Shown here: positions 35,987 through 64,000 of the stretch, piece by piece | Layout: every line of letters starts with the position of its first letter | Position numbering within the stretch: the first letter of the stretch is position 1 | NCBI GenBank assembly: GCA_964454835.1 | Contig: CAYVTU010000009.1 | Coordinates: forward strand, 8,817-72,816 | Source: an uncultured Brachyspira sp. | GTDB lineage: Bacteria > Spirochaetota > JAAYUW01 | DNA: 64,000 bases | Direction of reading: 5' to 3' | Position numbers and translations under genes: made by a program | The notes under the pieces: generated by a model | What the model was told of the DNA's origin: nothing | Database searches by the model: none | What the model saw: the letters and a program-made list of their open reading frames with translations, nothing else

Positions 35987-36114
35987 TTATTGTAATATTT
36001 AACAGATATCTTAATAGTTCATATTTAGTGAAATTGAAGTTGATTTAACTTTTTTATATTTAAGTTGATTTTTAATATTTTTCTTTATAATTGCTATGTG
36101 TTTTGGGAGTAGTT

Positions 36115-37455: not shown

Positions 37456-37519
37456 CAAATACCAAAGAAATATTGTTGGTAATAATAGAAAAGTTAATAT
37501 TGAAAAAATTGGAGGAAAG

Positions 37520-38647
37520 ATGTCCTGTATACTTTATTGTAACACTTCGGCTATAGCTCATAATGTATCATATTTATCTAAAGTAATTCATGAAAGAAAT
37601 GGTTACATTTTTGGAGTAACCAAGGTTTTGTCAGGAAATCCAGTTCTTGCTTCTATATTTATTGAGAATGGTTGTGATGGGATTGCTGATTCAAGATGGC
37701 AAAATTTAAAAAATATAAAAGAATCAGGTGAATTTAAAGAAATAATTTCAAAAAAAGGATTTATTCCATTCTTAAATTTGAGATTACCCGCATTATCTGA
37801 AATAGAACAGATAGTAAAGTATTCAGATATAAGTCTTGTTTCCGAAATAAATATTATTGCTGCTTTAGATGAAGAATCAAAAATCCAAAAGAAAAAGACT
37901 CAAATTATTTTGATGATCGATATTGGTGATTTAAGAGAGGGTATAATACCTTCAGATGCCAGAGAATTAGATTTACAAAAATGGCAAATTGAAACTGAAT
38001 CTTTTATCAAAGAGATATTAAGTTTTAAGAATATTGAATTTGTTGGTATAGGAACAAATTTAGCTTGTTTTGGAGGAATAGTACCGTCGAAAGAAAATAT
38101 GGGACTCTTAGTCAAATTATATAATTGGATACAAGATGAATACAATATAAAACTGAAATATCTTTCAGGTTCTAATTCATCTGGAATTCCTTTTTTGCTA
38201 GATGGAAAGATGCCAGCTGATGTAAATTTATTTAGAATTGGTGAAAGTATGATATTAGGAGTAAACGTTTTAAATAGACAACCAATAAATGGATTAAGAC
38301 AGGATACTGTATATATCTCAACTGAAGTCATTGAGAAAAAATTTAAGCCTTCAAAACCAATAGGGCAAGGTGCGCAAAACGCGTTCGGGGAAGTTCTGGA
38401 ATTTGAAGATAGAGGTACAATTTTAAGATTAATCTGTTCAGTAGGAAGACAGGATATTTTAGTTGATGGTTTAACACCTATCGATAATGATATATCTATT
38501 TTAGGAGCAAGTTCAGATCATCTAGAATTAGAATTAAAAAATAATAAAAATAAGTATAATATAGGTTCATTTATTGATTTTAAATTAAATTATGGAGCAT
38601 TACTTTCAGCTTCTACATCTAAATATGTTCAAACAAAATTTATTTAA
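37520..38647 (+). CDS. YhfX/ornithine-racemase-like PLP enzyme (alanine racemase N-terminal fold)
   Basis: YIFGVTKVLSGNPVLA…GCDGIADSR aligns with the E. coli YhfX PLP-lysine region (YLMTKQFGRNPWLA…GYSGIVAVD). A GGAGG RBS is present. Confidence 0.5.
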   Translation: MSCILYCNTSAIAHNVSYLSKVIHERNGYIFGVTKVLSGNPVLASIFIENGCDGIADSRWQNLKNIKESGEFKEIISKKGFIPFLNLRLPALSEIEQIVKYSDISLVSEINIIAALDEESKIQKKKTQIILMIDIGDLREGIIPSDARELDLQKWQIETESFIKEILSFKNIEFVGIGTNLACFGGIVPSKENMGLLVKLYNWIQDEYNIKLKYLSGSNSSGIPFLLDGKMPADVNLFRIGESMILGVNVLNRQPINGLRQDTVYISTEVIEKKFKPSKPIGQGAQNAFGEVLEFEDRGTILRLICSVGRQDILVDGLTPIDNDISILGASSDHLELELKNNKNKYNIGSFIDFKLNYGALLSASTSKYVQTKFI

Positions 38648-41060: not shown

Positions 41061-42194
41061 TCAGCAATCTATATAATAACGCTTTACCCTTTTACTTATC
41101 CAGCAGGTTACTTCATAAGGTATTGTGGATAATTCATTTGCGACAGTTGTTGCTGTGATTTTATCGAAGTCGAAAAAAACAACCTCTGTTCCGACATCAT
41201 AAAAATCATTTTCAAGATTTATCATAGTCTGATCCATGCAAATTCTTCCAGCTATTCTATATATCTTACTATTGATTATTACATTATGCTTATTAGAAAG
41301 TTGCCTATTTAATCCATCAGCATAACCTATTGGTGCTGTAGCTACATAGCAATCTTCAGTAGCTATGAAAGTTCCTCCATATGAAATTGGAGTTCCTTTC
41401 TTAACTCTCTTAATAAAAGCAATTTCAGTTCTTAATTTCATAGAAGGGAAAATTTCAATAGATTCACTTGTTTCATTCGATGGATAATATCCATACATCA
41501 TTACTCCAGGTCTTACCATATCAAAATAGCTTTCTGGTAAGTCTAAAATAGCTCCAGAATTTGCCATATGGTATAAAGGTATCATTATCCCTTCATTTTC
41601 TATTATTTTCTTAATTTTTGAAAAAGTATCAATTTGCATTTTTGAAAAGCTTTTATCTTTTTCATCAGATTTTGGAAAATGAGTAAAAACTCCTTCTAAA
41701 GTTATGTAATCACTTGATACTGCCTTCTTTGCTATTTCAATAACTTCATCTGGAAAAGCACCAATCCTACCCATTCCTGTGTCTACTTTAATATGAATTT
41801 TGGAATTTATATTATATTTCTGGCATATTTCTATTGCTTCATGTAATGTTTGTAGCGATACAATAGTCAAAGTAAGATTATTCTTTATTGCTTTAAGAAT
41901 TTGATCTTTGAAAGTAACTCCAAATAGTAAAATTGGTAGTTTTATTCCATTTTCTCGTAGTTCAATACCTTCTTCAACCGTTGCTACCCCAAGGTAATCA
42001 GCAAGGCTTTCTTTTTCTATCATTTTCGAAATAACAATAGCTCCATGACCATAGCCATCTGCTTTAACAGCAGGACATATTTTGACTTTTTTCCCAATTT
42101 TCTTTCTAATTCCTATTAAATTTCTTCTAATTGAGTTTAAATTAATTATTGCTGCGGTTTTTCTTTCAGATTCAAATGATACTAAATTTTTCAA
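41061..42194 (-). CDS. alr: Alanine racemase
   Basis: PLP-lysine motif AVKADGYGHGA and a C-terminal beta domain, 377 aa. Confidence 0.85.
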   Translation of the reverse strand: MKNLVSFESERKTAAIINLNSIRRNLIGIRKKIGKKVKICPAVKADGYGHGAIVISKMIEKESLADYLGVATVEEGIELRENGIKLPILLFGVTFKDQILKAIKNNLTLTIVSLQTLHEAIEICQKYNINSKIHIKVDTGMGRIGAFPDEVIEIAKKAVSSDYITLEGVFTHFPKSDEKDKSFSKMQIDTFSKIKKIIENEGIMIPLYHMANSGAILDLPESYFDMVRPGVMMYGYYPSNETSESIEIFPSMKLRTEIAFIKRVKKGTPISYGGTFIATEDCYVATAPIGYADGLNRQLSNKHNVIINSKIYRIAGRICMDQTMINLENDFYDVGTEVVFFDFDKITATTVANELSTIPYEVTCWISKRVKRYYIDC

Positions 42195-53663: not shown

Positions 53664-53694
53664 AAAAAAAGGGTGCCCTAAATTTAGGACACCC
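53664..53694 (-). terminator. Rho-independent terminator downstream of the flaA-like gene
   Basis: The minus-strand transcript reads GGGUGUCC-UAAAUUUA-GGGCACCC followed by UUUUUUU. This 8-bp GC-rich stem is unusual in this AT-rich sequence. Confidence 0.8.
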
Positions 53695-53711
53695 TTTTGT
53701 TTAAATATTAA

Positions 53712-54665
53712 TTATTTTTTAGGTTGATCTGATGAAGATTCTGTTGCCATCTTCTGTTGTTCTTCCCATCTTAAAAGTTGAATAATTCCAACTCTAGCAG
53801 CTTCTGCTCTTTTTTTAGCTTCTCTTCTATCTGAGAGAATGTGCCATACTGCTTCATCGTCAATTTCTTGTTCCATTTTAAGAATAGCAAGATCATATAT
53901 CATCTCAACTGATTTGATATAGATTAAGAAATCGCCACCAATTTGATCTCCGTGTCTATAAACGATAAAAGAATCGAGTTTGACATATGGTTCTTCAACA
54001 GGATATAAAGGATATTTCTTCAACATTCTTTTTCTTACATCTGCGATATAATTAGGATTATCGATCGTAATTGTGATAAAACCAGTGAAATCCAAGTAAC
54101 CGACGAAGAAATCGATTAATTCATCATTCTGGTTTTTTAATCTAACTGTAAGAGAATGTGGGAAATTTAATCCTCTAACTGTTACCATAAGGTTTTTAAT
54201 TGCACCAACATTTCTCAAAACACCTTTACCGATATACTTGTTACCGATAGTATCATTTGCATCTGCTGGTTCATATGATGGGATTTCATAAGGAGGTATA
54301 ATCTTTGCCCAGGAATTATACTTTTCTTTTGGGAAATGGATTCTAGCACCTAAAACAGTCTGCCCCGCATATTGACCTCTATCAACTTTAACTGTTTTTA
54401 CAAAAGATAATGAGATGTTTTCTATTGTTCTAGATGAAGGGGATAAAATAACTTCCCAGTTTTTAGGTTCCAAACTGATAAGCAAATTTTTCCTCTCTTC
54501 TTCTGTCTTTACAGATTGAAAAACATTAGGACCAGCAATTTTAACAATATCTAATTCTGTATTAGCTAAGTTGTTGAAATCAATAAGAACATTTCTTTCT
54601 GCAAGCACAGGAGTTGCAAAGAGGAAAATTAGGAATATTGCAAAAATTAAATTCCATCGTTTCAT
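53712..54665 (-). CDS. flaA: Flagellar filament outer-layer (sheath) protein FlaA-like
   Basis: Signal peptide (…PVLA/ER) and a pattern recalled from spirochete FlaA proteins (LIDF, NW.V.L, R.HFP, NVG.IK, PLYP, VKLDS, GGDF, IDDEAVW). A strong dedicated terminator suggests an abundant structural protein. Confidence 0.55.
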   Translation of the reverse strand: MKRWNLIFAIFLIFLFATPVLAERNVLIDFNNLANTELDIVKIAGPNVFQSVKTEEERKNLLISLEPKNWEVILSPSSRTIENISLSFVKTVKVDRGQYAGQTVLGARIHFPKEKYNSWAKIIPPYEIPSYEPADANDTIGNKYIGKGVLRNVGAIKNLMVTVRGLNFPHSLTVRLKNQNDELIDFFVGYLDFTGFITITIDNPNYIADVRKRMLKKYPLYPVEEPYVKLDSFIVYRHGDQIGGDFLIYIKSVEMIYDLAILKMEQEIDDEAVWHILSDRREAKKRAEAARVGIIQLLRWEEQQKMATESSSDQPKK

Positions 54666-54788
54666 TTTTCAGCTCCTTTTTGTTTAATCATAATATCGGA
54701 AATCCCCTCCCTAAAAATTAACCATTTTTTCATATATTTATTTATAATTTATTTTTAATTTTTTTCAAATAAGATATGATTTATTATT

Positions 54789-55268
54789 CTATTTTTTATT
54801 TTTTAACTGAAAGGAATATGATTTAATTTTTCCAAATATAAAAAATTCCACTGATTCAACATTTTTAAATATTCTGGAATTTTTTATTGATAATAAAGTA
54901 GCCCTAGAAAGAATTTCTTTTATATTATCAGGATATTGCATAAAGATAGAACTAGATTCATTTGATAACATTATTTTACATGTTTTATTTTGATAATAAA
55001 CATTTTCTATTTCCAACATTTGAAAAAGATCTTTTTTAAATTTTTTAACATTAATTGGTCCAGAAAAATAATGCTTAATTAATTGTAAACCATCATATTT
55101 TTTAGGTAAAATTTGAGTTTCTGATTTAATTGATAAGTCTGATGTAATATAATAAAATTTAATTGTATTATAACCTATATATTTAATAAAGACAATCAGA
55201 AAAAATAACACTATTAAGCTTAATATAGAATAAAAGATAACCTTATTGTATTTTTTTAAATCCTTCAC
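54789..55268 (-). CDS. Membrane-anchored hypothetical protein (possibly GerMN-like, amidase-associated)
   Basis: One N-terminal TM segment. It is overlap-coupled to the upstream amidase gene. No clear motif. Confidence 0.25.
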   Translation of the reverse strand: MKDLKKYNKVIFYSILSLIVLFFLIVFIKYIGYNTIKFYYITSDLSIKSETQILPKKYDGLQLIKHYFSGPINVKKFKKDLFQMLEIENVYYQNKTCKIMLSNESSSIFMQYPDNIKEILSRATLLSIKNSRIFKNVESVEFFIFGKIKSYSFQLKNKK

Positions 55269-56565
55269 TTAATGTGTACTCCTTTATAAATAATTCTACA
55301 CCTTTACTTATAGCCGATGCTAATGAATCAAGGTAACTTTCAGAAGTCATTATTTTAACATCATTTGGATTTGTTATGTATCCTATTTCAATTAACATTG
55401 AAGGCATTTCTGAATAAGCAAGGACATAAAATGGAGCACCTTTTACAAATGATACTCCTATTTCCTTTACATTTTCTTTTATACTCTCAAAGCATAATTT
55501 TGCAAGTTTTGAAGACTCAAATATAAGTTGTTCATTTAACATTCTATTTATTATAGTATTCAATATTGAATCAGTTCCAGAATCTTTGTTTTCATATTTA
55601 ACTAAATCTTTAATTTTTTCATCTATAACATCATAATCTAAATAATAAACTTCAATTCCACTTTTTTTATTTGAATACGCATTAGCATTTGAATGCAAAG
55701 AAATAAAAATCCCTGTTTTTGTTTCAGAAAGATATTTATTTGATATCTTTACTCTATCTTCTAATGTCAATTTAGCATCTTTTTCTCTGGTCAAATAAAT
55801 TGAAAGATATGGAAATCTTGTGGTTAATACTTTTTTTAAATGTAAAGCAGCTTTTAAATTTATATCTTTTTCAAAGGTCTTATTTGCGACTGCACCAGGA
55901 TCATCGCCTCCATGACCTGCATCTATTATAATAAATGAGATTACCTTAAAATCAACCATCTTAGCTTGAGCATATGAATAAAATACTTCCATTTCTTTTT
56001 GTATTTGGGTTGATGAATCTACCTGTTCTTTATTTTTTTCATTATTCTTATCATCACTTTTTTTATCTTCTTCTTTTTTTTCTTCTTTTTCTTGTTGGTT
56101 TGGTTTTTCTTCTGTTTTATTGAATATTTCTTCTTTTTGCAAATTTTTTAAGTACTCTGAATACCAGAAATCATAAATTTGTTTGTTTTTAATGGGTATA
56201 AAAAAGATATTAAATAGAGAAAATACCAGCTTTTCTGGAATTATTATTTTTCCATTAATAATTACAATTTGCTTAGATAAATTCTCAACATAATATTTAT
56301 AAAGACACAAACCTGAATTATCGAATATTAATTGTTCTTTAGTTTGCAAATTTATGAAAATATAACAATCCTGTATATGGTCATATGATATTGATATTCC
56401 AAAATCATCTAAAAGAATTGATTGAAAGAATGTGACACTTGTAGAACCATAAATTTGATTAGAAATAAATAAAATAAAAAATAAAATTAAAAAGAAAAAA
56501 TAGAAAATAAAATTATGTACTTTTTTATTATTTTTTAATAGCATAAAGCTCACAAATATCTCCAA
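55243..56565 (-). CDS. N-acetylmuramoyl-L-alanine amidase (Amidase_3, AmiC-like)
   Basis: C-terminal catalytic domain with IIDAGHGGDDPGAV and …SLHSNA… motifs. The N-terminus has a TM segment and a KEE-rich low-complexity linker. Confidence 0.75.
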   Translation of the reverse strand: MEIFVSFMLLKNNKKVHNFIFYFFFLILFFILFISNQIYGSTSVTFFQSILLDDFGISISYDHIQDCYIFINLQTKEQLIFDNSGLCLYKYYVENLSKQIVIINGKIIIPEKLVFSLFNIFFIPIKNKQIYDFWYSEYLKNLQKEEIFNKTEEKPNQQEKEEKKEEDKKSDDKNNEKNKEQVDSSTQIQKEMEVFYSYAQAKMVDFKVISFIIIDAGHGGDDPGAVANKTFEKDINLKAALHLKKVLTTRFPYLSIYLTREKDAKLTLEDRVKISNKYLSETKTGIFISLHSNANAYSNKKSGIEVYYLDYDVIDEKIKDLVKYENKDSGTDSILNTIINRMLNEQLIFESSKLAKLCFESIKENVKEIGVSFVKGAPFYVLAYSEMPSMLIEIGYITNPNDVKIMTSESYLDSLASAISKGVELFIKEYTLSEGFKKIQ

Positions 56566-58348
56566 ATTTTATAGCATTGCTCAGGTTTTTAATAAATATT
56601 TTATTAAATATAGTTGAAATAAAAGGTAAAGCATTTTTAAATCTTTCATAGTGAAAGCTAGGGATTCTAACTCTATAAATATTAAAACCTTTTTTTATAA
56701 AATATTTTTTTAAGCTATAAGGATTAAAGTCATAAAAATGATCTTTTGGTCTTGTTTCAAAATAGGCTGTTCTATTTTTCTTGAAACAAAACATAGGACC
56801 AAATTGAGATGGAAAACTTAAACATAAAATTCCACCTTTTTTTAGTAAATTAAAAGCTCTATTTACTATATGATCAAAATCCTTTATATGTTCAAAGCAA
56901 AACCAAAAAGAAATAATATCAAACTCTTTTTGCTCAATATCATCAATTGATTTATATGAAAAATAACCTTTTTTCATACAAAATTCAAGGGCATACGTAT
57001 TACTTTCTACAATATAACCTTCCATTCTCTTTGATAAAAAAGATAATTTTTCTTTTAAATCATCAAGAAAAAATCCAAGGGCGCCACCAAAATCGATTGC
57101 ACTAATTTTTTGAGAAGTTGATTTCAACAAATGTGGAAGAATATAATTAATTCTATCATGATTAATTTTTTTTATATTTTCTCTATCTTCAAAGTAGGTC
57201 TTACCATATAAATTTTTATATTCATCGATATAGTATTTTTCTTTTTCATCCTCATTCATCTGTTCATAATCAAGATTTTCTTTAATTATTGTTTTACAGT
57301 ATGGACAGATAAGAAGATTAAATTTTTCATATAAATATAATGTTTTTATTGTTTTACTTTCACAGATTGGACATTTCTTAATAAAGTTTTCTTTGTTATC
57401 CTTAATATAATTTAATAAAGAAGTTAATTTTTCTTTTATTTCAAAAATATTTCCTAAATCACTTAAATTAAAAGAATTAAAATTATCATAGAAATAGTTA
57501 TCTTTTTCATAATTTATTTTTTTTATGCTTTGATCATTGGTATCATTTAATATAAGACTTAAAAACTTCTCTTTAACAATCTTTCCTTTTTTTGAAATAT
57601 GAAGATTTTTAAAATATTTATTTGATAGTTTTTCATGATAAGAAGTAGGAGAAAAAATAATAAGATTTTTATTCATCTTTAAAATTTCAAATACAAATAA
57701 TCCAAAATGAGTTATTATAGTATTAGATGCAGATACAAGAAATTTATATTTTTCATCACCTGCTCTTAAAATATCAAAATTTGAATAAATTGAATTCTCC
57801 TTGTTTTTAATAATATTATCATAGATTTTTTCCGGTAAAACAAATAATATTTTTTTTCCGGAAAATAATTGGTTGTTTTGATTTATAAAGTTAGCTATTT
57901 TTTTAGTGCAATTATAAGGATCTAGATTACCAAAGCTAATAAAAATATCATAATAAACTGAATTGCCATCATTGATTTGATTTTTATTTTCAAAATCATT
58001 TATAATAAGGTATTTTAAAGATTTTAAATTGCCAAAATCAACTAATGATGGAATTGAATTCCAGTAAAACCTATAACCTCTATATCTTTTTGGAAGATAA
58101 TAATCATCGAAATCTATGACCAATTTTGAACCGAAAAATATATCTGTTGTCTCGTTGCTATTTCTTGTATCTTTTATAATTAAATCATATTCTATTAAAT
58201 CAAGTTTTAAAATCTCTTTTATATTATTTATTTTTACTATTTCTGAGTTAAATCCTAATTCATTTAAAATTTTTTGTAATATTTTTTGTCGTACAAAATG
58301 CCCCGAGCCAAATTTATTACCAAATCCAGCTATTTGAAGTATTTTCAT
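56528..58348 (-). CDS. Fusion of a PseG/SpsG-like glycosyltransferase-fold domain with a zinc-ribbon class I SAM methyltransferase
   Basis: N-terminal MKILQIAGFGNKFGSGHFVRQ resembles the PseG/SpsG GxGHxxR start. The central region has a CPICES…CPYCK zinc ribbon. The C-terminal methyltransferase-like region reads AIDFGGALGFF…KKGGILCLSFP. Confidence 0.5.
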   Translation of the reverse strand: MKILQIAGFGNKFGSGHFVRQKILQKILNELGFNSEIVKINNIKEILKLDLIEYDLIIKDTRNSNETTDIFFGSKLVIDFDDYYLPKRYRGYRFYWNSIPSLVDFGNLKSLKYLIINDFENKNQINDGNSVYYDIFISFGNLDPYNCTKKIANFINQNNQLFSGKKILFVLPEKIYDNIIKNKENSIYSNFDILRAGDEKYKFLVSASNTIITHFGLFVFEILKMNKNLIIFSPTSYHEKLSNKYFKNLHISKKGKIVKEKFLSLILNDTNDQSIKKINYEKDNYFYDNFNSFNLSDLGNIFEIKEKLTSLLNYIKDNKENFIKKCPICESKTIKTLYLYEKFNLLICPYCKTIIKENLDYEQMNEDEKEKYYIDEYKNLYGKTYFEDRENIKKINHDRINYILPHLLKSTSQKISAIDFGGALGFFLDDLKEKLSFLSKRMEGYIVESNTYALEFCMKKGYFSYKSIDDIEQKEFDIISFWFCFEHIKDFDHIVNRAFNLLKKGGILCLSFPSQFGPMFCFKKNRTAYFETRPKDHFYDFNPYSLKKYFIKKGFNIYRVRIPSFHYERFKNALPFISTIFNKIFIKNLSNAIKFGDICELYAIKK

Positions 58349-58389
58349 AATCTATATTTTTATTTTAAATATTTTTTCTACACAGCAAT

Positions 58390-59151
58390 TTATTCTTTAT
58401 AATTTTTTTGAATTTCATTTAAGTTAATCTCGAATTCTTTTTTATTTTCGTAATATAAATTTTTAATATCATCAATATCTATAAAATATAATGATTTATT
58501 TTTTTCATTAAAATGAGTAATAATATTTTTAACAACTAAATAATCTTTTTTTGTATCTATTGTTAATCTTAATTTTGAAATATCTTCATACCCAATAAAA
58601 GGTTTTTTTAAGATTAAAAATCTATCAGGATTTTCGTAAATATATGGAGTAACATGCTCAAAATGATATGATTTATTCGCATTATTAAAATTATTCCAGA
58701 AAGCTTCTTTTTTAATAATTTCAGTCTGGGTTCCTAAAGGTAAATTTTCTCTTATAAAATAATCTGGTAATTTTTCATTTTTATTTAAAATTTCATTTAA
58801 TATTTCAATATTTTCTTTTAATACAATCAATGAAGTAAAAGGGTTATCACAAGTTACTCTTATAAGATAATCTGATTCATATTTATAAAATGAATCCGCA
58901 AATCTACTCAACACATTTTCTTCACTGCCACTACTTAAATAAAAACAATCTATACAATATTTTTTAAAAATATCTTCTTCAGTTTTTGGAACAGCCAGAA
59001 TATTAAATTTTATTAAATTAGAAAGAGAAGATAATCTTTTTTGAAGAAATATGACTATTTCATCTTTCCCCAACTTTTTTAAAACTTTTTGAGGAAATCT
59101 TGTTGATTTTAGTCTTGCCTGTAAAATTAAGGTAAAATTTAGTTTATTCAT
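58390..59151 (-). CDS. SpsF/PseF-like cytidylyltransferase (CMP-sugar synthetase fold)
   Basis: N-terminus LILQARLKSTRFPQKVLKKLG matches the acylneuraminate cytidylyltransferase / SpsF family signature, 253 aa. Confidence 0.6.
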   Translation of the reverse strand: MNKLNFTLILQARLKSTRFPQKVLKKLGKDEIVIFLQKRLSSLSNLIKFNILAVPKTEEDIFKKYCIDCFYLSSGSEENVLSRFADSFYKYESDYLIRVTCDNPFTSLIVLKENIEILNEILNKNEKLPDYFIRENLPLGTQTEIIKKEAFWNNFNNANKSYHFEHVTPYIYENPDRFLILKKPFIGYEDISKLRLTIDTKKDYLVVKNIITHFNEKNKSLYFIDIDDIKNLYYENKKEFEINLNEIQKNYKE

Positions 59152-60728
59152 CAGAAAAAATAAGTATAGAATTCATTACAATCATTACATAAATTCAAAT
59201 GTTGATTATCACAGTGCTGTTTATAAAAATTCTTCATTGTATCAATAATTATATCTATATTATCATCTATATTAAGGTTAATAGTCTGACCATTATAATC
59301 TGAATAACATAAAGCGATTTTACCATCTGATAAAATAAATATTTCTCTTCTTAAATGGTAACATGGAAACCTTTTTACCGGTGTTAAATCAGCAACTTCA
59401 AGATTATCAAGTTTTTTAGAATATGAATTATATTTTCTAAATATTATATTTTTTTCATATTTTTGAAAATATGAATAAAATGATTCTATCTCATCATCAT
59501 TTTGAGGAATTCTCAAATATGATATAAAAACATTCTCAGGATATTTATCTAGTAAAGAAATTATTGTTTTATTAAGTAAAGGTAAAATCATCTTTTTACC
59601 TAGATTTTTATATGTATCTTCATTATATGCATCAATACTGACTACTAAAAAGATATTGTGAGAATTTTTAAACTGATTATAAAAATCAGGGGATAAAAAT
59701 GACCCATTAGTTTCAATATAAACTTTATTGTTTTCTGATAAAAATTCAATTATTTCGTTGAAATCTTTATGCATTAGTGGTTCACCAAAACCACCCACAA
59801 TAAATACAGAATCATTGAAAAAAATTCTATTTTTATTAATAAAATTAAATAAACTACTCTTGTTTATGAACTCAGAATCTCTTTTTAAACCTTTGGGATA
59901 TGGACAATGAATACATGAAAAATTACATTTGCTGGAAAGTTCAATAATATATGTTTTGGGAATAGTATATAAAATTTCTAATCGCGATATTTTACTTTCA
60001 ATCTCTTCCCATTCTATATTTTTAAACTGGTAAATATTAAAAAAATCAAGTGTAGAAATTGAATTAATTAATTCAACGTAATTTTCATTTTTAATATATT
60101 TTTCTTCCTTGAAAAATAATGCTATTAATGGTAAAGATGAAAAATCAGAAAGAGAAAGAGAAATTCTATACGGAAGATAGTAATCAAGACCTTCAATTAA
60201 ATCTATATCAAACATGCTGATATTTCTTAAAAGAATATCAAAAATCAGATTATGATGATAATAGTCTTTTTCATTTGATAATTTGATTAATTCTTCTAAA
60301 ATAGTATTTCGGAAAACTTCTCCTACAATTCCCTCTGGAAAATTTTCTCCATAATAATAATCTGTTAGATATTTTTCAGAATCTTCAATAATAAACTTGT
60401 TTTTTGAGATTGAAAATAAAGGATAAGATGCAGATAAAAGTAAAGTATAACTATTGTCAGATTGTATGTTTTCTTCAACAATTCTTTTATTATAGGACTC
60501 CAAAAAAGATTTTACTGATTTTGAATAATATATATAATTTGAAAAAGAGAAATTATCCTTTATTAAATCAAGATACTCTTGTTCTATTGCAAGATATACA
60601 TTTAAATCACAATCTTTTAAAAAGGAGTCAATTTTTTTTTGCAAGAATGAAAAATAATTTTTTAATTGTTTTTCCTTGTACAATTTAAATAGCGATTCTT
60701 CAAAAAAAAGTACTAGATTATTATTCAT
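59151..60728 (-). CDS. Radical SAM enzyme with C-terminal SPASM/twitch-like Cys cluster and ~255-aa N-terminal extension
   Basis: CNFSCIHC (Cx3Cx2C) near residue 260 and GGFGEPLMH follow a ~255-aa N-terminal region with no recognised motifs. The C-terminal Cys-rich region reads CYHLRRE…DGKIALCYSDYNG…CDNQHLNLCNDCNEFY. Confidence 0.7.
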   Translation of the reverse strand: MNNNLVLFFEESLFKLYKEKQLKNYFSFLQKKIDSFLKDCDLNVYLAIEQEYLDLIKDNFSFSNYIYYSKSVKSFLESYNKRIVEENIQSDNSYTLLLSASYPLFSISKNKFIIEDSEKYLTDYYYGENFPEGIVGEVFRNTILEELIKLSNEKDYYHHNLIFDILLRNISMFDIDLIEGLDYYLPYRISLSLSDFSSLPLIALFFKEEKYIKNENYVELINSISTLDFFNIYQFKNIEWEEIESKISRLEILYTIPKTYIIELSSKCNFSCIHCPYPKGLKRDSEFINKSSLFNFINKNRIFFNDSVFIVGGFGEPLMHKDFNEIIEFLSENNKVYIETNGSFLSPDFYNQFKNSHNIFLVVSIDAYNEDTYKNLGKKMILPLLNKTIISLLDKYPENVFISYLRIPQNDDEIESFYSYFQKYEKNIIFRKYNSYSKKLDNLEVADLTPVKRFPCYHLRREIFILSDGKIALCYSDYNGQTINLNIDDNIDIIIDTMKNFYKQHCDNQHLNLCNDCNEFYTYFF

Positions 60729-60746
60729 TAATTGACCTACGATTTA

Positions 60747-61442
60747 TCATTTTATCTTAAATGTAACTTCCTCTATATCATCAGAACCAAAAGAAAGAAC
60801 ATCCCCTTTAACAATAGGACCAACCCCTTCACATGTACCGGTAAGAATAATATCTCCTGGTATCAATGTAAAGTGCTGCGAAATAAAGGAAATAAGTTTT
60901 GGGATAGAAAAAATCATGAATGATGAATCAGATTTTTGGACTATATTACCATTTTTTTTAAGATAGAATGGTTTTTTCATAAGTTTTTCAATATTATCAA
61001 AAGGAAGAATTCTTGAAATAGGACAACTGGTATCAAACCCTTTAGAAATTAACCATGGTCCACCATTCTTTTTAGCTTCTGTTTGTAAATCCCTACATGT
61101 CAAATCAAGAGCAATACCATAACCACCTATGAAATTTTTCACTTCGTTTTCTGATATGTTTTTAACCTTTTTTGAAATATAGATAGCAATTTCTACTTCA
61201 TGGTGAACAAGCTGAGAAAATTCAGGATAAATTATATCATCACCTTCTTCTATAATTGAGGTAGGTGGTTTTGAAAAAATTAGGGGTTTGCCAATATTTA
61301 TCGAGTTTAATTCTTCTATATGTTTTACATAATTTTGTCCAACACAATAGATTGTTGATACGGGTAAAAGCCTACCATCTGAACCATGTATGCATTTTTT
61401 TAAGTAGTATTCAGGTAAAATTTCGAAAAAATCTTTACCCAT
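60747..61442 (-). CDS. Fumarylacetoacetate hydrolase (FAH)-family protein
   Basis: 231 aa with FAH-fold motifs (IYCVGQNYVKH, HHEVEIAI, GTCEGVG). Confidence 0.7.
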   Translation of the reverse strand: MGKDFFEILPEYYLKKCIHGSDGRLLPVSTIYCVGQNYVKHIEELNSINIGKPLIFSKPPTSIIEEGDDIIYPEFSQLVHHEVEIAIYISKKVKNISENEVKNFIGGYGIALDLTCRDLQTEAKKNGGPWLISKGFDTSCPISRILPFDNIEKLMKKPFYLKKNGNIVQKSDSSFMIFSIPKLISFISQHFTLIPGDIILTGTCEGVGPIVKGDVLSFGSDDIEEVTFKIK

Positions 61443-61490
61443 AATTATCCTTTAATTAATTATTAAAAAATTAAACAAAAAGCTATTTTA

Positions 61491-62624
61491 TTATATCAAT
61501 TTCAAAAATGCTCTTCTTCTTTTATGCTGTCTTGCATCAAAATATTTCCAATGTCCCTGGACTTTTTCGTTTACTTCCAGTTCAGGATTTGATTCAGCTG
61601 AGATAATACCTGATTCAATTGCTGATTTAGATAGCTCATTCATCATTAAAGCATCAACTCCTTTTCCCTGATACTCTGGAAGAACTGCGCCAAGAAGCAA
61701 GTCTAAATATTTTGGTTTTAAAAGAGCTGAAAGTAGATATATAAAACCAAATGGGAACAATTTTCCTTTCGCTTTTTGTAGCGCTCTATTTAATGATGGC
61801 ATTCCTATTACCATACCGACTATATTATCATTTTCGTTAAAAACAAGTTTAACAAATTTTGGAGATAGAAATGAAAAATAAGATTTAATATAATATTGAA
61901 TCTGTTTTTCTGTTAATTCAGTCACACCATACAAATTCTTATATGCTTTTTCTATAACTTCAAATACTTCTTTCCCATATTTTTTTACCATTAAATTCAT
62001 GCTTTTTATTTCTTTAGTATGTAGTTTAAATCTTTCCATGACAATTCTAGAAAGTTTTTCTGCTTTTTCTGGTATCTGTTTTGGTACTTTTATTTCAAAT
62101 TCCACCCAATCAGCATCTTTCTTAAGCCCAAGTCTTTCATAATGATCTACATAGTATGGGTAATTATATAAAGTAGCCATAGTGCCAAGTTCTTCAAATC
62201 CTTCTATTAAAAGTCCTTCATAATCAAGATCTGAAAAACCTAGAGGTCCATTTAAACCAACCATACCTTTTGATTTTGCCCAATTGGTGACTTGATCGAA
62301 TAATGTTTTAGAAACATCATAATCATCTATAAAATCAAACCAACCAAATCTTGCGTATTTATTTCCCCATTTTTTTATATAATTATGTTGTATTATTCCT
62401 GCTATTCTTCCAACCATTTTATTTCCTTTCCAAGCAGTATAATATATAGATTCGCACACTTCAAATGCAGGATTAATATCTTTTCGCAAAGTATTTAATT
62501 CATCAAGAAAAAGAGGTGGTATCCAATATTTGTTTCCTTTATAAAGGTCAAATTCAAATTGAATAAATTGTTTTAATTCTTTAATTGTTTTAACTTCTCT
62601 AATTTCGATCTTTTTTTCTTCCAT
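61491..62624 (-). CDS. GNAT-fold / FemAB-like acyltransferase family protein (uncharacterised)
   Basis: 377-aa two-lobed protein with a C-terminal GNAT-like segment (…GAVLPEYQGKGVDALMMNEL…). Assignment is tentative. Confidence 0.35.
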   Translation of the reverse strand: MEEKKIEIREVKTIKELKQFIQFEFDLYKGNKYWIPPLFLDELNTLRKDINPAFEVCESIYYTAWKGNKMVGRIAGIIQHNYIKKWGNKYARFGWFDFIDDYDVSKTLFDQVTNWAKSKGMVGLNGPLGFSDLDYEGLLIEGFEELGTMATLYNYPYYVDHYERLGLKKDADWVEFEIKVPKQIPEKAEKLSRIVMERFKLHTKEIKSMNLMVKKYGKEVFEVIEKAYKNLYGVTELTEKQIQYYIKSYFSFLSPKFVKLVFNENDNIVGMVIGMPSLNRALQKAKGKLFPFGFIYLLSALLKPKYLDLLLGAVLPEYQGKGVDALMMNELSKSAIESGIISAESNPELEVNEKVQGHWKYFDARQHKRRRAFLKLI

Positions 62625-62692: not shown

Positions 62693-64000
62693 TTATTTCC
62701 TTAATTCAAATCCTTTATTTTCCATAGATGAAACAATTTTCTTAATTATCTGTTGTGCATCTTCAGAGCTTAAAGTTTTTTCATAAGAATTTACAGTTAT
62801 ATTAAAGGCAACAGATTTTTTATTCTCTGGAAGGTTTGGACCTTGATAAATATCGAAAAGTTCAATTTTTCTAATGTTTTTATCAGCATTATTTATTATT
62901 TGAACAATATCTTGTATATATGACTTAACAGGCACCACAAATGCTAAATCAAATGTTATATTTGGGTACTTAGAAATTTGATAAAATTTTCTAATATTGC
63001 CTTTACATTTTATTAATAAATCTAAATAGGTACTAAATATAGATACTCTTTGTTTAATATCAAAATATTTAGCAATATCAGGATGAATTTCACCAAAAAT
63101 TCCGATTTTTGTATCATTATAAAATAAAACACCACTTTTATAAGGATGCAAAAATGAAGGAATATCGTTTGTTTTAATTTCAATGTCATATATATTAAAA
63201 AGATTACATAATTCAATTATAGCATCTCTTGAATCAAGAATCGATAAATTGTAATCTTTATATAATAAAGCCCCTGCTATTTCAACAGGTTCATTTACTG
63301 AACCATCTTCGTTTAGTAAAAAAACATGTTCAACTTCATATATTTTAAATTCATCAAAGTATCTCAAATTTGTGTTAACATTTTTCAATATATTAGGAAG
63401 CAAAGTTTTAGTCAAATATGGTTTTTCAGTATCCAAAGGGTTTTTGATTTTTACAAAAGGTTCACTAAAATTAAAAAGATTATTTAATTTTTCAGTAGAA
63501 AAAGGATAATTTAAAACTTCTGTAAAGTTTAAGTTATTTGATAAATATTCCTTAACTTTCCTTTTATAATTTGGTAATTCAATTTGAGGAGCTATATCGA
63601 GTTTTACACTTGGAGCTTCAGGTACTATATTATCATAGCCATATACTCTTCCTACTTCTTCTACAATATCTTCTGGTATTTTTATATCTTTTGTAGAGCG
63701 AAATGTAGGCACAGTAATATTTAATACTCCATTATTTAATGTAACATCAAATTCAAGTTTTTTTAATATATCTAAAATAACATTTTCTTGAATTGTTGTT
63801 CCAAGTCTTTTAATTATCAAGTCTACTGGCATAATTATCTTGTTTTTCTGTGGTTGTTTTTCAAAAACAATTTTTTGTCCCATTATTATGATTTTTGAAT
63901 CCAAATCATATAATATTTGAGCAAATTTTTGAATTGCAAGATTAACAAAAGAAGGATCAAGAGATTTTTCAAATCTATTTGATGCTTCTGTTCTTATACC
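62693..64000 (-). CDS. pheT: Phenylalanine--tRNA ligase beta subunit, C-terminal part (5' end lies outside the window)
   Basis: B5 and catalytic-like region VGRVYGYDNIVPEAP and a C-terminal ferredoxin-fold anticodon-binding domain. The frame is open from the TTG at 63904 through to position 64000, so the gene continues beyond the window. Confidence 0.8.
   Translation of the reverse strand, partial: GIRTEASNRFEKSLDPSFVNLAIQKFAQILYDLDSKIIIMGQKIVFEKQPQKNKIIMPVDLIIKRLGTTIQENVILDILKKLEFDVTLNNGVLNITVPTFRSTKDIKIPEDIVEEVGRVYGYDNIVPEAPSVKLDIAPQIELPNYKRKVKEYLSNNLNFTEVLNYPFSTEKLNNLFNFSEPFVKIKNPLDTEKPYLTKTLLPNILKNVNTNLRYFDEFKIYEVEHVFLLNEDGSVNEPVEIAGALLYKDYNLSILDSRDAIIELCNLFNIYDIEIKTNDIPSFLHPYKSGVLFYNDTKIGIFGEIHPDIAKYFDIKQRVSIFSTYLDLLIKCKGNIRKFYQISKYPNITFDLAFVVPVKSYIQDIVQIINNADKNIRKIELFDIYQGPNLPENKKSVAFNITVNSYEKTLSSEDAQQIIKKIVSSMENKGFELRK

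What the first reader, a model, noticed from the sequence alone, without database searches (positions are those of the whole stretch)
53712..62624. FlaA-adjacent sugar-modification cluster of unusual composition; candidate undescribed flagellin/LOS glycosylation pathway
Immediately upstream of a FlaA-like gene on the same strand lie a cell-wall amidase and then five tightly packed or overlapping genes, as read left to right: a PseG/SpsG-like domain fused to a SAM methyltransferase, an SpsF/PseF-like cytidylyltransferase, a radical-SAM/SPASM enzyme, an FAH-family enzyme, and a GNAT/Fem-like acyltransferase. SpsF/SpsG/PseG/PseF homologues define nonulosonic-acid (pseudaminic/legionaminic-type) pathways that decorate flagellins. 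Spirochete flagellins are known to carry unusual nonulosonic-acid derivatives. No NeuB/PseI-like synthase, PseB/C dehydratase or aminotransferase is present in the window. Instead a radical-SAM and an FAH-fold enzyme are embedded, a combination I do not recognise from described pse/leg/neu loci. This is the best candidate in the window for a novel system.
Basis: partly seen in the sequence, partly recalled or inferred. Interest (0 to 1): 0.7.

Follow-up and report, generated by a model that had tools for sequence, protein, structure and literature searches.

The report
Sugar-modifying genes conserved upstream of flaA
Three of the five flagged genes form a previously unstudied sugar-nucleotide enzyme set that spirochaetes from Exilispira-like organisms to Treponema keep directly upstream of a cell-wall amidase and the flagellar sheath gene flaA, so it is a testable candidate for flagellar or cell-envelope glycan tailoring, though its target is not shown.

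Summary
The window holds no nonulosonic-acid synthase, dehydratase or sugar aminotransferase.

- **Conserved core.** It has three genes: a spiro-SPASM radical-SAM protein (TIGR04321), an SpsF-like cytidylyltransferase, and a PseG-like/zinc-ribbon/methyltransferase protein.
- **Evidence for a unit.** In Treponema the last two are fused into one ~826-aa protein. In 7 of 8 lineages the PseG-like gene lies upstream of amidase, a GerMN-like gene and (where the contig reaches) flaA.
- **Transcription.** A strong terminator follows flaA here. In T. denticola, flaA is published as co-transcribed with its four upstream ORFs.
- **Not core.** The FAH gene is an FAHD1/YcgM-type housekeeping enzyme. It and the GNAT-like gene are absent from the Treponema loci and one intermediate lineage.
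- **Not self-contained.** No related locus carries the core nonulosonic-acid genes.

Two unexpected findings concern spiro-SPASM. Its N-terminal domain is a cytidylyltransferase homologue lacking the nucleotide-binding motif. About half the family, including all Treponema operon copies, has lost the radical-SAM CxxxCxxC cysteines.

The target glycan (flagellin, cell wall or other) is inferred only.

The parts
59151..60728 (-). spiro-SPASM protein (525 aa), a member of TIGR04321. It has three parts: an N-terminal cytidylyltransferase-like domain, a radical-SAM core and a C-terminal 4-Cys domain.
   Evidence: TIGR04321 scores 278.8 bits against a cut-off of 250. Radical_SAM Pfam E 9.6e-14. The stop overlaps the start of the next gene by 1 nt.
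59979..60728 (-). N-terminal domain of spiro-SPASM (aa 1-250): a homologue of SpsF-like cytidylyltransferases that lacks the nucleotide-binding motif.
   Evidence: hhalign of the family N-domain against the cytidylyltransferase family gives probability 97%, E 6.8e-11, over 188 columns. The control with the radical-SAM half gives 0.25%. The L024 cytidylyltransferase hits TIGR04321 positions 71-225 at E 1.3e-8. The 'QxRLxSxRxxxK' motif is present in all 20 cytidylyltransferase sequences and absent from the spiro-SPASM N-termini listed.
59904..59927 (-). Radical-SAM cluster motif C268-x3-C272-x2-C275 (CNFSCIHC), intact in this organism.
   Evidence: Alignment. Only 73 of 151 family representatives keep this triad.
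59154..59381 (-). C-terminal Fe-S domain with four conserved Cys (C456, C474, C514, C517). This is an abbreviated SPASM (Twitch-like) pattern.
   Evidence: The four Cys are 97-100% conserved in both triad-bearing and triad-less members. The SPASM Pfam match is only E 0.008.
58390..59151 (-). SpsF-like cytidylyltransferase (253 aa).
   Evidence: PF02348 scores 77.4 bits. The best PDB match is 6oew 'cytidylyltransferase', E 1.1e-17. It matches KdsB models only weakly and far below their cut-offs, and no other cytidylyltransferase model was listed. It is fused to the next gene's product in Treponema.
56528..58348 (-). 606-aa fusion of a PseG-like GT-B domain, a zinc ribbon and a class I SAM methyltransferase.
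   Evidence: AF2 model with pLDDT 86.8. See the domain rows below. Its 3' end overlaps the amidase gene by 17 nt.
57545..58348 (-). PseG-like (UDP-sugar hydrolase / GT28-type) domain, aa 1-268, with a G14-x-G16-H17-x-x-R20 motif.
57296..57373 (-). Zinc ribbon (CPIC...CPYC, aa 326-351).
   Evidence: C326, C329 and C348 are invariant and C351 is nearly invariant. The motif was found in 19 of 21 homologues.
56531..57151 (-). Class I SAM-dependent methyltransferase domain (aa ~400-606).
   Evidence: Methyltransf_23 E 5.1e-11. Foldseek matches many class I methyltransferases. The zinc ribbon plus methyltransferase also aligns with the sugar C-methyltransferases KijD1 (5t6b) and MtmC (4rv9).
55243..56544 (-). 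N-acetylmuramoyl-L-alanine amidase (Amidase_3) with an N-terminal membrane anchor.
   Evidence: PF01520 scores 147.3 bits. It lies downstream of the PseG-like gene, directly or after an ATP-grasp gene, in 7 of 8 lineages.
54789..55268 (-). 159-aa membrane-anchored protein, a probable divergent GerMN-like partner of the amidase.
   Evidence: It has no Pfam hit itself. The positional orthologues in Treponema hit Germane PF10646. hhalign between the two groups gives probability 82%, E 1e-5.
53712..54665 (-). FlaA, the flagellar filament outer-layer (sheath) protein, with a signal peptide.
   Evidence: PF04620 scores 191.8 bits. It is 87-95% identical among the Exilispira-like loci L005-L010.
53667..53698 (-). 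Intrinsic terminator 14 nt after the flaA stop. It marks the likely end of the transcription unit.
   Evidence: A 14-bp stem with 6 G-C pairs followed by a T run.
60747..61442 (-). FAHD1/YcgM-type FAH-family enzyme (oxaloacetate decarboxylase / acylpyruvase type). It is a neighbour, not part of the conserved module.
   Evidence: E 2.7e-53 to human FAHD1 and 5.4e-45 to E. coli YcgM. It is absent from the Treponema loci and from L024. In L013 a GH31 gene separates it from spiro-SPASM.
61491..62624 (-). 377-aa protein with a marginal GNAT signature. It is a lineage-restricted neighbour, not part of the conserved module.
   Evidence: Acetyltransf_1 scores 21.5 bits against a cut-off of 20.7. It has no NCBIfam hit and no PDB hit by sequence or profile. 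It is 76-88% identical among Exilispira-like genomes and absent from the Treponema loci and L024.

Best explanation
**What it is.** The window comes from an Exilispira-like spirochaete. The finding contains a conserved three-protein nucleotide-sugar module:
- spiro-SPASM;
- an SpsF-like cytidylyltransferase;
- a PseG-like/zinc-ribbon/methyltransferase protein.

The module sits at the head of a transcription unit that continues through a cell-separation-type amidase and a GerMN-like protein. The unit ends with flaA and a terminator.

**Proposed mechanism (all steps inferred).**
1. The PseG-like domain removes UDP from, or transfers, a UDP-linked sugar.
2. The methyltransferase domain methylates the sugar or an acyl substituent.
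3. The SpsF-like enzyme activates the resulting acidic sugar as a CMP derivative.
4. spiro-SPASM binds the same sugar or sugar nucleotide through its degenerate cytidylyltransferase-like domain. In this organism, where the cluster cysteines are intact, it adds a radical-SAM step.

**Proposed role.** The module is a tailoring branch, not a complete pathway. The core nonulosonic-acid genes must lie elsewhere in the genome. Its most likely product is the glycan on the periplasmic flagellar filament that the FlaA sheath contacts.

**Excluded genes.** The FAH and GNAT-like genes are unrelated neighbours.
For: **The three genes form a unit.**
- The cytidylyltransferase and the PseG-like/methyltransferase protein are one ~820-850-aa polypeptide in 14 distant homologues.
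- Domain order in that fusion was checked by Pfam and NCBIfam: CTP_transf_3, then PseG at E 3.6e-8, then zinc ribbon, then methyltransferase.
- In the window, spiro-SPASM and the cytidylyltransferase overlap by 1 nt (ATGA).

**Linkage to the amidase and flaA is conserved.**
- The window and L005-L010 share the arrangement.
- L013, with 36% spiro-SPASM identity and two inserted genes, keeps it.
- L024 keeps the cytidylyltransferase, PseG-like/methyltransferase gene, amidase, 157-aa gene and flaA.
- L020 keeps the PseG-like/methyltransferase gene, amidase, 188-aa gene and flaA.
- Four Treponema loci have spiro-SPASM, a ~320-aa gene, the fusion, ATP-grasp, amidase, Germane and flaA.
- L025 keeps the cytidylyltransferase, PseG-like/methyltransferase gene, ATP-grasp and amidase.

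**Enzyme identities.**

**Transcription.**
- A terminator lies right after flaA.
- In T. denticola, flaA (TDE1712) is co-transcribed with its four upstream ORFs from a sigma-70 promoter (PMC9481697).

**Biological plausibility.**
- SpsF and SpsG act in CMP-legionaminic acid biosynthesis in B. subtilis (PMC7439481).
- T. denticola FlaB carries a 2-methoxy-4,5,6-trihydroxy-hexanoyl nonulosonic acid.
- That glycan promotes core-sheath (FlaA) interaction (PMC13439194).
Against: - No locus examined, here or in about 12 related ones, has a NeuB/PseI-type synthase, PseB/PseC-type enzymes or a Maf/FlmG-type flagellin glycosyltransferase next to the module.
- The known T. denticola Pse gene (PseI, TDE0960) is far from flaA.
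- The module is physically tighter with the amidase (17-nt overlap) than with flaA (123-nt gap).
- Both sugar enzymes score far below the PseG, PseF and KdsB equivalog cut-offs.
- spiro-SPASM occurs alone in two lineages.
- It has lost its radical-SAM cysteines in the very Treponema operons that best conserve the arrangement.
- L021 has the PseG-like/methyltransferase gene without an amidase or flaA nearby.
- No flagellin glycosylation data exist for this organism.
Confidence: 0.4

Rival explanations
1. **Cell-wall reading.** The module modifies peptidoglycan, or makes a peptidoglycan-associated glycan. Its true functional partners are the amidase, the GerMN-like protein and, in Treponema, the ATP-grasp ligase. 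On this reading flaA is only a passenger at the end of an old operon.
For: - The PseG-like/methyltransferase gene and the amidase gene overlap here, and in L013 and L024.
- In Treponema an ATP-grasp enzyme with D-Ala-D-Ala-ligase and L-amino-acid-ligase signatures sits between the module and the amidase, overlapping the amidase gene in three of the four loci.
- In B. burgdorferi, BB_0666 is listed as the divisome amidase.
- bb0665-bb0667 is cited there as an operon promoting cell division.
- That flaA is BB0668, the next gene, rests on my memory.
- In L014 the solitary spiro-SPASM lies near a MurA-type gene (EPSP_synthase family).
Against: - To my knowledge, no peptidoglycan modification is known that needs a CMP-activating enzyme of this family.
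- The closest homologues, SpsF/SpsG and PseG, act in nonulosonic-acid pathways.
- No mur, pbp or other cell-wall synthesis gene is consistently linked to the module.
Confidence: 0.25
2. **LOS or surface-glycolipid reading.** The cytidylyltransferase activates a Kdo-like or other acidic sugar for the outer-membrane glycolipid of this lipid-A-bearing organism.
For: - The window carries lpxD, lpxA, lpxC, bamA and ompH.
- The cytidylyltransferase's best NCBIfam matches are KdsB models.
Against: - The KdsB matches are far below cut-off (31 bits against 255).
- The module is not linked to lpx, kds or waa genes in any locus.
- The arrangement is conserved in Treponema. Characterised Treponema species lack lipid A biosynthesis (my knowledge, not tested on these assemblies).
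Confidence: 0.1
3. **No shared function.** The arrangement is inherited gene order in compact, co-directional spirochaete genomes. The sugar enzymes serve an unrelated cytoplasmic role, for example small-molecule or cofactor metabolism.
For: - All genes from about 41 kb to 64 kb run on one strand, and most are housekeeping genes.
- The FAH and GNAT-like genes are such neighbours.
- Spiro-SPASM occurs alone elsewhere.
- L021 breaks the linkage.
Against: - A Rosetta-stone fusion joins two of the three proteins.
- Adjacency survives insertions of GH31, a toxin-antitoxin pair and other genes, and rearrangements of all flanking genes, between lineages sharing only 23-36% identity.
Confidence: 0.15
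4. **Peptide-maturase reading.** Spiro-SPASM modifies a ribosomal peptide or protein, as many SPASM enzymes do, possibly FlaA or another neighbour.
For: SPASM-domain radical-SAM enzymes are typically peptide or protein maturases. The best secondary NCBIfam hits are maturases.
Against: - No small precursor ORF fits the 18-123-nt gaps.
- The C-terminal domain has 4 conserved Cys, not 7.
- The N-terminal domain is a sugar-nucleotide-enzyme homologue.
- The catalytic triad is dispensable in half the family.
Confidence: 0.05

Closest known systems
PseF/PseG of the pseudaminic-acid pathway (C. jejuni PseG, PDB 3hbm/3hbn; the H. pylori neuA/flmD cluster)
   Same: - The N-terminal domain of the 606-aa protein has PseG as its top sequence-profile hit and top fold hit.
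- It keeps the Gly-x-Gly-His17-x-x-Arg20 motif.
- A CTP_transf_3 enzyme is adjacent or fused, as in the H. pylori neuA/flmD flagellin-glycosylation cluster. That cluster's title appears in the reference list seen. That His17 is catalytic rests on my memory.
   Different: - Scores are far below the PseG equivalog cut-off (18.4 and 33.3 bits against 153.55).
- The cytidylyltransferase is SpsF-like, with no PseF or NeuA model hit.
- No PseB, PseC, PseH or PseI gene is nearby.
- The PseG-like domain carries a zinc ribbon and a methyltransferase, and is partnered with spiro-SPASM.
SpsF/SpsG of the B. subtilis CMP-legionaminic acid pathway (PMC7439481)
   Same: It pairs a putative cytidylyltransferase with an SpsG-type protein (PseG-like by COG assignment, from my memory), both required to make and deploy a nonulosonic acid.
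   Different: - B. subtilis has the full set (SpsM, C, D, E) in the same region.
- Here only the F-like and G-like members are present, with extra domains.
- Direct similarity to SpsF and SpsG was not measured.
T. denticola flaA transcription unit TDE1716-TDE1712 (PMC9481697)
   Same: [quoted passage not shown]
- TDE1711, downstream, is a RelA/SpoT-type small alarmone synthetase. This matches the gene after flaA in the Treponema loci.
- A TDE1714 primer translates to ELGFIS, close to the ELGFVS motif in the L023 amidase.
   Different: - The identities of TDE1715 and TDE1716 could not be checked here.
- T. denticola has four upstream ORFs, not six, so spiro-SPASM and the ~320-aa gene may be absent from that locus.
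- No function was assigned in the paper.
TIGR04321 'spiro-SPASM protein' (NCBIfam/TIGRFAMs subfamily model)
   Same: The window protein passes the curated cut-off full length (278.8 bits against 250).
   Different: This is a name only. No paper mentions the family. Neither the cytidylyltransferase-like N-domain nor the frequent loss of the radical-SAM triad appears in any paper held in the library searched.
Twitch-domain radical-SAM sugar dehydrogenase BtrN (from memory; not compared here)
   Same: A single auxiliary cluster with a C-x17/18-C ... C-x2-C ligand pattern, acting on a carbohydrate-type small molecule rather than a peptide.
   Different: No sequence or structure comparison was run. 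BtrN has no cytidylyltransferase-like domain.
NDP-sugar C-methyltransferases KijD1 (5t6b) and MtmC (4rv9)
   Same: The zinc ribbon plus class I methyltransferase aligns over 275-329 columns (Foldseek E about 2e-7).
   Different: TM-scores are modest (0.40-0.44 on the target). Generic methyltransferases score better. There is no evidence for C-methylation rather than O- or N-methylation.

Membership tests
Pseudaminic/legionaminic-acid (nonulosonic acid) biosynthesis locus | A PEP-condensing nonulosonic-acid synthase (PseI/NeuB/LegI/SpsE) in the locus | tested here: not met
   No NeuB-family hit in any ORF of 150 aa or more in the window, in the 10 kb beyond pheT, or in any related locus. The rest of the genome was not available.
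Pseudaminic/legionaminic-acid (nonulosonic acid) biosynthesis locus | A 4,6-dehydratase and a DegT-type aminotransferase (PseB/PseC or LegB/LegC) | tested here: not met
   None in the window or the related loci (same calls). The only aminotransferase nearby is a divergently oriented class I/II enzyme (Aminotran_1_2) beyond pheS.
PseG (TIGR03590 equivalog) | Score at or above the curated cut-off of 153.55 bits | tested here: not met
   18.4 bits for the window protein and 33.3 bits for the Treponema fusion.
PseG-like GT-B UDP-sugar hydrolase fold | A two-Rossmann GT28-type fold with an N-terminal G-x-G-H-x-x-R motif | tested here: met
CMP-sugar synthetase (CTP_transf_3) | The Pfam domain above its gathering score, and the N-terminal nucleotide-binding motif | tested here: met
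   PF02348 scores 77.4 bits against 22.6. The motif ILQARLKSTRFPQK is present. The protein is far below the cut-offs of the KdsB models it matches, and no other cytidylyltransferase model was listed.
TIGR04321 spiro-SPASM | Score at or above 250 bits, full length | tested here: met
   278.8 bits, residues 5-525 against profile positions 2-510.
Radical SAM superfamily (catalytically competent) | A CxxxCxxC triad for the SAM-binding [4Fe-4S] cluster | tested here: met
   C268, C272 and C275 are present in the window protein. The triad is absent from 78 of 151 family representatives, including the Treponema operon copies.
SPASM domain (two auxiliary clusters) | A seven-cysteine motif | tested here: not met
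   Only four C-terminal Cys are conserved (456, 474, 514, 517). The Pfam SPASM match is E 0.008 and below the gathering score.
RiPP / protein maturase system | An adjacent precursor peptide or target gene | tested here: not met
   The intergenic gaps are 18-123 nt with no room for a precursor ORF. ORFs shorter than 80 aa that overlap genes were not listed.
FAH family, FAHD1/YcgM type | The FAA_hydrolase domain and close similarity to FAHD1/YcgM | tested here: met
   PF01557 scores 174.5 bits. E 2.7e-53 to FAHD1 and 5.4e-45 to YcgM. NF007967 scores 187.6 bits, just under its cut-off of 201.
GNAT acyltransferase / Fem-like | A GNAT Pfam domain; for Fem, a FemAB-family match | tested here: inconclusive
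   Acetyltransf_1 scores 21.5 bits against 20.7. There is no FemAB hit, no NCBIfam hit and no PDB hit by sequence or profile.
GerMN (Germane, PF10646) | A Pfam match | tested here: inconclusive
   The window's 159-aa protein has no Pfam hit. The Treponema positional orthologues do. hhalign between the two groups gives probability 82%.
Flagellin glycosylation system | A flagellin glycosyltransferase (Maf, FlmG or GT2-TPR type) and a glycosylated flagellin | not testable with these tools
   No Maf or FlmG-like gene appears in the loci seen. The ~320-aa protein in Treponema and the 342-aa protein in L013 have no Pfam, NCBIfam or PDB-profile match. Glycosylation needs mass spectrometry.

The most novel reading that the evidence does not exclude
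**Proposed system.** The module is a spirochaete-specific tailoring system that writes a methylated, CMP-activated acidic sugar onto the flagellar core. That decoration sets how the FlaA sheath docks, which would explain why the genes travel with flaA.

**Proposed role of spiro-SPASM.** It is not primarily an enzyme. It is an Fe-S, sugar-nucleotide-binding partner built from a dead cytidylyltransferase domain and a radical-SAM barrel. Its radical chemistry has been lost many times independently, while the protein has stayed under selection.
Probability: 0.15. Interest if true: 0.8.

Novelty: new variant of a known kind. Interest (0 to 1): 0.55.

Why it matters
- **Open question.** Spirochaete flagellins carry unusual nonulosonic-acid derivatives needed for filament assembly and for core-sheath contact. 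The genes that make the unusual substituents are not known.
- **Concrete candidate.** A conserved, uncharacterised methyltransferase/cytidylyltransferase/PseG-like module, with an ATP-grasp ligase in Treponema, is co-transcribed with flaA. It can be knocked out in T. denticola.
- **If the cell-wall reading is right.** It would point to an unknown envelope modification tied to cell separation.
- **Independent point.** The spiro-SPASM family offers a natural series of radical-SAM proteins that kept everything except the catalytic cluster.

Tried and rejected
- **Metagenome scan.** It failed with a tool error and was still counted.
- **Word-indexed homologue searches.** Two searches with spiro-SPASM did not reach beyond about 24% identity. 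The exhaustive representative search did.
- **Organism names.** Twenty family representatives yielded names for only two clusters ('Treponema sp.' and 'Spirochaetia bacterium'). Presence in Sphaerochaeta, Leptospira, Brachyspira or Borrelia could not be tested.
- **afdb50 fold library.** It was unavailable.
- **The ~320-aa and 342-aa proteins.** I guessed by eye that the ~320-aa Treponema protein and the 342-aa L013 protein are GT2-like. Pfam, NCBIfam and a PDB profile search gave nothing, and the two show no BLAST similarity to each other. I dropped the claim.
- **T. denticola primers.** Translating published primers to identify TDE1713-1716 supported only TDE1714 = amidase and flaA.
- **Promoter scan.** It is uninformative in this AT-rich DNA: 91 sites found against 96 expected.
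- **Radical-SAM deoxygenation idea.** I considered a radical-SAM deoxygenation step making the 3-deoxy acyl group of the T. denticola glycan. I rejected it because the Treponema copies lack the radical-SAM cysteines.
- **Papers not held.** Kurniyati 2017 and Yang and Li 2009 could not be read.

Full report
**Source and layout**

The window is AT-rich (about 25% G+C). An identical copy lies on a 171.5-kb metagenome contig. The closest named relatives of its proteins are from Exilispira sp. assemblies.

From about 41 kb to the end of the window every gene is on the minus strand. The order, 5' to 3', is:

| Gene | Coordinates |
|---|---|
| pheT | C-terminal ORF 62693-63904; the gene runs on beyond the window end |
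| GNAT-like, 377 aa | 61491-62624 |
| FAH, 231 aa | 60747-61442 |
| spiro-SPASM, 525 aa | 59151-60728 |
| cytidylyltransferase, 253 aa | 58390-59151 |
| PseG-like/zinc ribbon/methyltransferase, 606 aa | 56528-58348 |
| amidase, 433 aa | 55243-56544 |
| 159-aa membrane protein | 54789-55268 |
| FlaA | 53712-54665 |
| terminator | 53667-53698 |
| ftsY, cvpA, mutS2 | downstream |

The gaps are +68, +48, +18, -1, +41, -17, -26 and +123 nt.

**Check of the observation**

There are three refinements:
- The radical-SAM protein is a full-length member of TIGR04321 'spiro-SPASM' (278.8 bits, cut-off 250).
- The GNAT call is marginal, and 'Fem-like' is unsupported.
- A 159-aa ORF between the amidase and flaA was overlooked.

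The window holds no nonulosonic-acid synthase, 4,6-dehydratase or DegT-type aminotransferase. It does hold lpxD, lpxA, lpxC, bamA and ompH. Beyond pheT lie pheS, then divergent unrelated genes.

**Which genes belong together**

I sampled the genomic context of homologues of spiro-SPASM and of the 606-aa protein.

| Lineage (loci) | Arrangement |
|---|---|
| Exilispira-like (window, L005-L010) | Full arrangement as in the window |
| L013 (36% spiro-SPASM identity) | Same, with a GH31 gene and a 342-aa gene inserted |
| L024 | ftsK, cytidylyltransferase, PseG-like/methyltransferase, amidase, 157-aa gene, flaA. No spiro-SPASM, FAH or GNAT |
| L020 | PseG-like/methyltransferase, amidase, 188-aa gene, flaA |
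| Treponema (L017, L019, L022, L023) | xseA (divergent), then spiro-SPASM, ~320-aa gene, fusion, ATP-grasp, amidase, Germane, flaA, RelA/SpoT |
| L025 | Cytidylyltransferase, PseG-like/methyltransferase, an inserted HEPN/nucleotidyltransferase pair, ATP-grasp, amidase |
| L021 | PseG-like/methyltransferase with a homologous ATP-grasp 3 kb away, no amidase or flaA |
| L014, L016 | Spiro-SPASM alone |

In the Treponema loci the fusion protein is 826-839 aa. It carries CTP_transf_3, a PseG-like domain, a zinc ribbon and a methyltransferase on one chain. Fourteen such fusions were found.

The conclusions from this sampling are:
- The conserved core is the cytidylyltransferase plus the PseG-like/methyltransferase protein.
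- Spiro-SPASM is a frequent but not obligatory partner.
- The core is anchored upstream of amidase, a GerMN-like gene and flaA.
- FAH and GNAT-like are lineage-restricted neighbours.
- FAH is a close FAHD1/YcgM homologue.
- Among Exilispira-like genomes the GNAT-like protein (76-88% identity) and FlaA (87-95%) evolve slowly. The module proteins evolve fast (41-67%).

**Enzyme identities**

*The 606-aa protein.*
- The AF2 model has pLDDT 86.8.
- A profile of the N-terminal 268 residues finds C. jejuni PseG (3hbm) as its best PDB sequence, E 3e-4, aligned from residue 1.
- The motif G-x-G-H17-x-x-R20 is present in all 21 homologues, fused or not.
- The C-terminal part is a zinc ribbon plus a class I methyltransferase. 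It also aligns with the sugar C-methyltransferases KijD1 and MtmC.

*The 253-aa protein.*
- It is a CTP_transf_3 enzyme with the nucleotide-binding motif.
- Its best solved relative is an uncharacterised cytidylyltransferase, 6oew.
- Neither sugar enzyme approaches the PseG, PseF or KdsB equivalog cut-offs.

**Spiro-SPASM**

An exhaustive profile search found 406 cluster representatives at E of 1e-30 or better. Three features stand out.

*The N-terminal domain.*
- About 190 residues are homologous to the SpsF-like cytidylyltransferases. hhalign gives 97%, E 6.8e-11; the control gives 0.25%. This was confirmed independently.
- The domain lacks the nucleotide-binding motif.

*The C-terminal domain.* It conserves only four cysteines.

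*The radical-SAM triad.*
- Of 151 representatives, only 73 keep the CxxxCxxC triad.
- Of the 78 that lack it, 59 have no cysteine at any of the three positions.
- The triad-less group includes L013 and all four Treponema operon copies.
- The triad-less L017 copy scores 503.8 bits on TIGR04321.
- Every other conserved position is equally conserved in both groups.
- A rough neighbour-joining tree needs at least 31 state changes.
- The window protein keeps the triad.

The conserved role of this family therefore cannot rest on radical-SAM catalysis.

**Transcription and literature**

- A strong terminator follows flaA. No comparable one lies inside the cluster.
- In T. denticola, flaA (TDE1712) is described as an orphan flagellar gene co-transcribed with its four upstream ORFs from a sigma-70 promoter upstream of TDE1716 (PMC9481697).
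- TDE1711 is a small alarmone synthetase. This matches the gene after flaA in the Treponema loci.
- T. denticola FlaB carries 2-methoxy-4,5,6-trihydroxy-hexanoyl nonulosonic acid, and the glycans promote core-sheath interaction (PMC13439194).
- The known PseI gene, TDE0960, is elsewhere in that genome.
- SpsF and SpsG act in the B. subtilis CMP-legionaminic-acid pathway (PMC7439481).
- In B. burgdorferi, BB_0666 is the divisome amidase, and bb0665-bb0667 is cited as a cell-division operon.
- No paper mentions spiro-SPASM or assigns a function to TDE1713-1716.

**Interpretation**

*Shown:*
- A conserved, fused or translationally coupled sugar-nucleotide module.
- Its conserved position upstream of amidase, a GerMN-like gene and flaA.
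- The exclusion of FAH and GNAT-like from the module.
- The domain findings on spiro-SPASM.

*Inferred:*
- The chemistry: UDP-sugar hydrolysis or transfer, methylation and CMP activation.
- The target.

I favour flagellar-filament glycan tailoring (0.4). The reasons are the homology to nonulosonic-acid enzymes, co-transcription with flaA, and the reported glycan-sheath contact. The methoxy group and the amide-linked acyl group of the Treponema glycan would fit a methyltransferase and an ATP-grasp ligase.

The main rival is a cell-wall role tied to the amidase (0.25). It rests on the tighter physical coupling to the amidase and on the MurG-like fold. LOS, mere synteny and a peptide-maturase role are less likely.

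**Verdict**

This is a real, conserved and uncharacterised variant of a known kind of system. It is not a complete pathway, and it is not the five-gene unit proposed. It is of moderate to good interest because it can be tested directly in T. denticola.

Noticed in passing
window 59904-59927 (C268/C272/C275) and family representatives P0012-P0165: About half of the TIGR04321 spiro-SPASM family (78 of 151 representatives) lacks the radical-SAM CxxxCxxC triad. These members keep all other conserved residues and the four C-terminal cysteines. A rough tree implies many independent losses.
   Followed up: partly
window 59979-60728: The N-terminal domain of spiro-SPASM is a homologue of the adjacent SpsF-like cytidylyltransferase but has no nucleotide-binding motif. 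It looks like a pseudo-enzyme or ligand-binding domain.
   Followed up: yes
window 53667-53698 (minus strand): A strong intrinsic terminator (14-bp stem, T run) lies 14 nt after the flaA stop. It separates flaA from ftsY.
   Followed up: partly
window 12146-18619: The run bamA, ompH, lpxD, lpxA, ruvX, lpxC shows that this Exilispira-like spirochaete makes lipid A.
   Followed up: no
L017 9042-10004, L019 8951-9970, L022 11446-12405, L023 11601-12557; L013 11628-12656: A conserved ~320-aa protein lies between spiro-SPASM and the fusion gene in Treponema. It has no match in Pfam, NCBIfam or PDB sequences. An unrelated-looking 342-aa gene occupies the same position in L013. The window has no counterpart.
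   Followed up: partly
L017 12471-14075 and equivalents in L019, L022, L023, L025; L021 12340-14607: In Treponema an ATP-grasp ligase (D-Ala-D-Ala-ligase / L-amino-acid-ligase type) sits between the module and the amidase. In L021 it is fused to an FMN-dehydrogenase domain. It is absent from the window.
   Followed up: partly
L025 3658-4381: A HEPN/nucleotidyltransferase pair, a toxin-antitoxin-like cassette, is inserted on the opposite strand inside the module in one lineage.
   Followed up: no
L005-L010 versus the window: Evolutionary rates are uneven inside the cluster. FlaA is 87-95% identical and the GNAT-like protein 76-88%. The PseG-like/methyltransferase protein is 41-54%, spiro-SPASM 50-67% and the cytidylyltransferase 46-67%.
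   Followed up: no
L016 5994-8381: In one lineage a solitary, triad-bearing spiro-SPASM gene starts immediately after the stop of a TM1586-type nitroreductase-like gene, with no gap.
   Followed up: no
window 36091-38647: A PF13941 'MutL protein' (the glutamate-mutase-associated type, not the mismatch-repair MutL) lies next to an alanine-racemase-N-like gene. A canonical alanine racemase lies at 41061-42194.
   Followed up: no
L007, L008 record titles: Two public assemblies whose loci match this Exilispira-like gene order at 60-67% spiro-SPASM identity are labelled Brachyspira ('uncultured Brachyspira sp.' and 'Brachyspira murdochii'). The labels may be misassignments.
   Followed up: no
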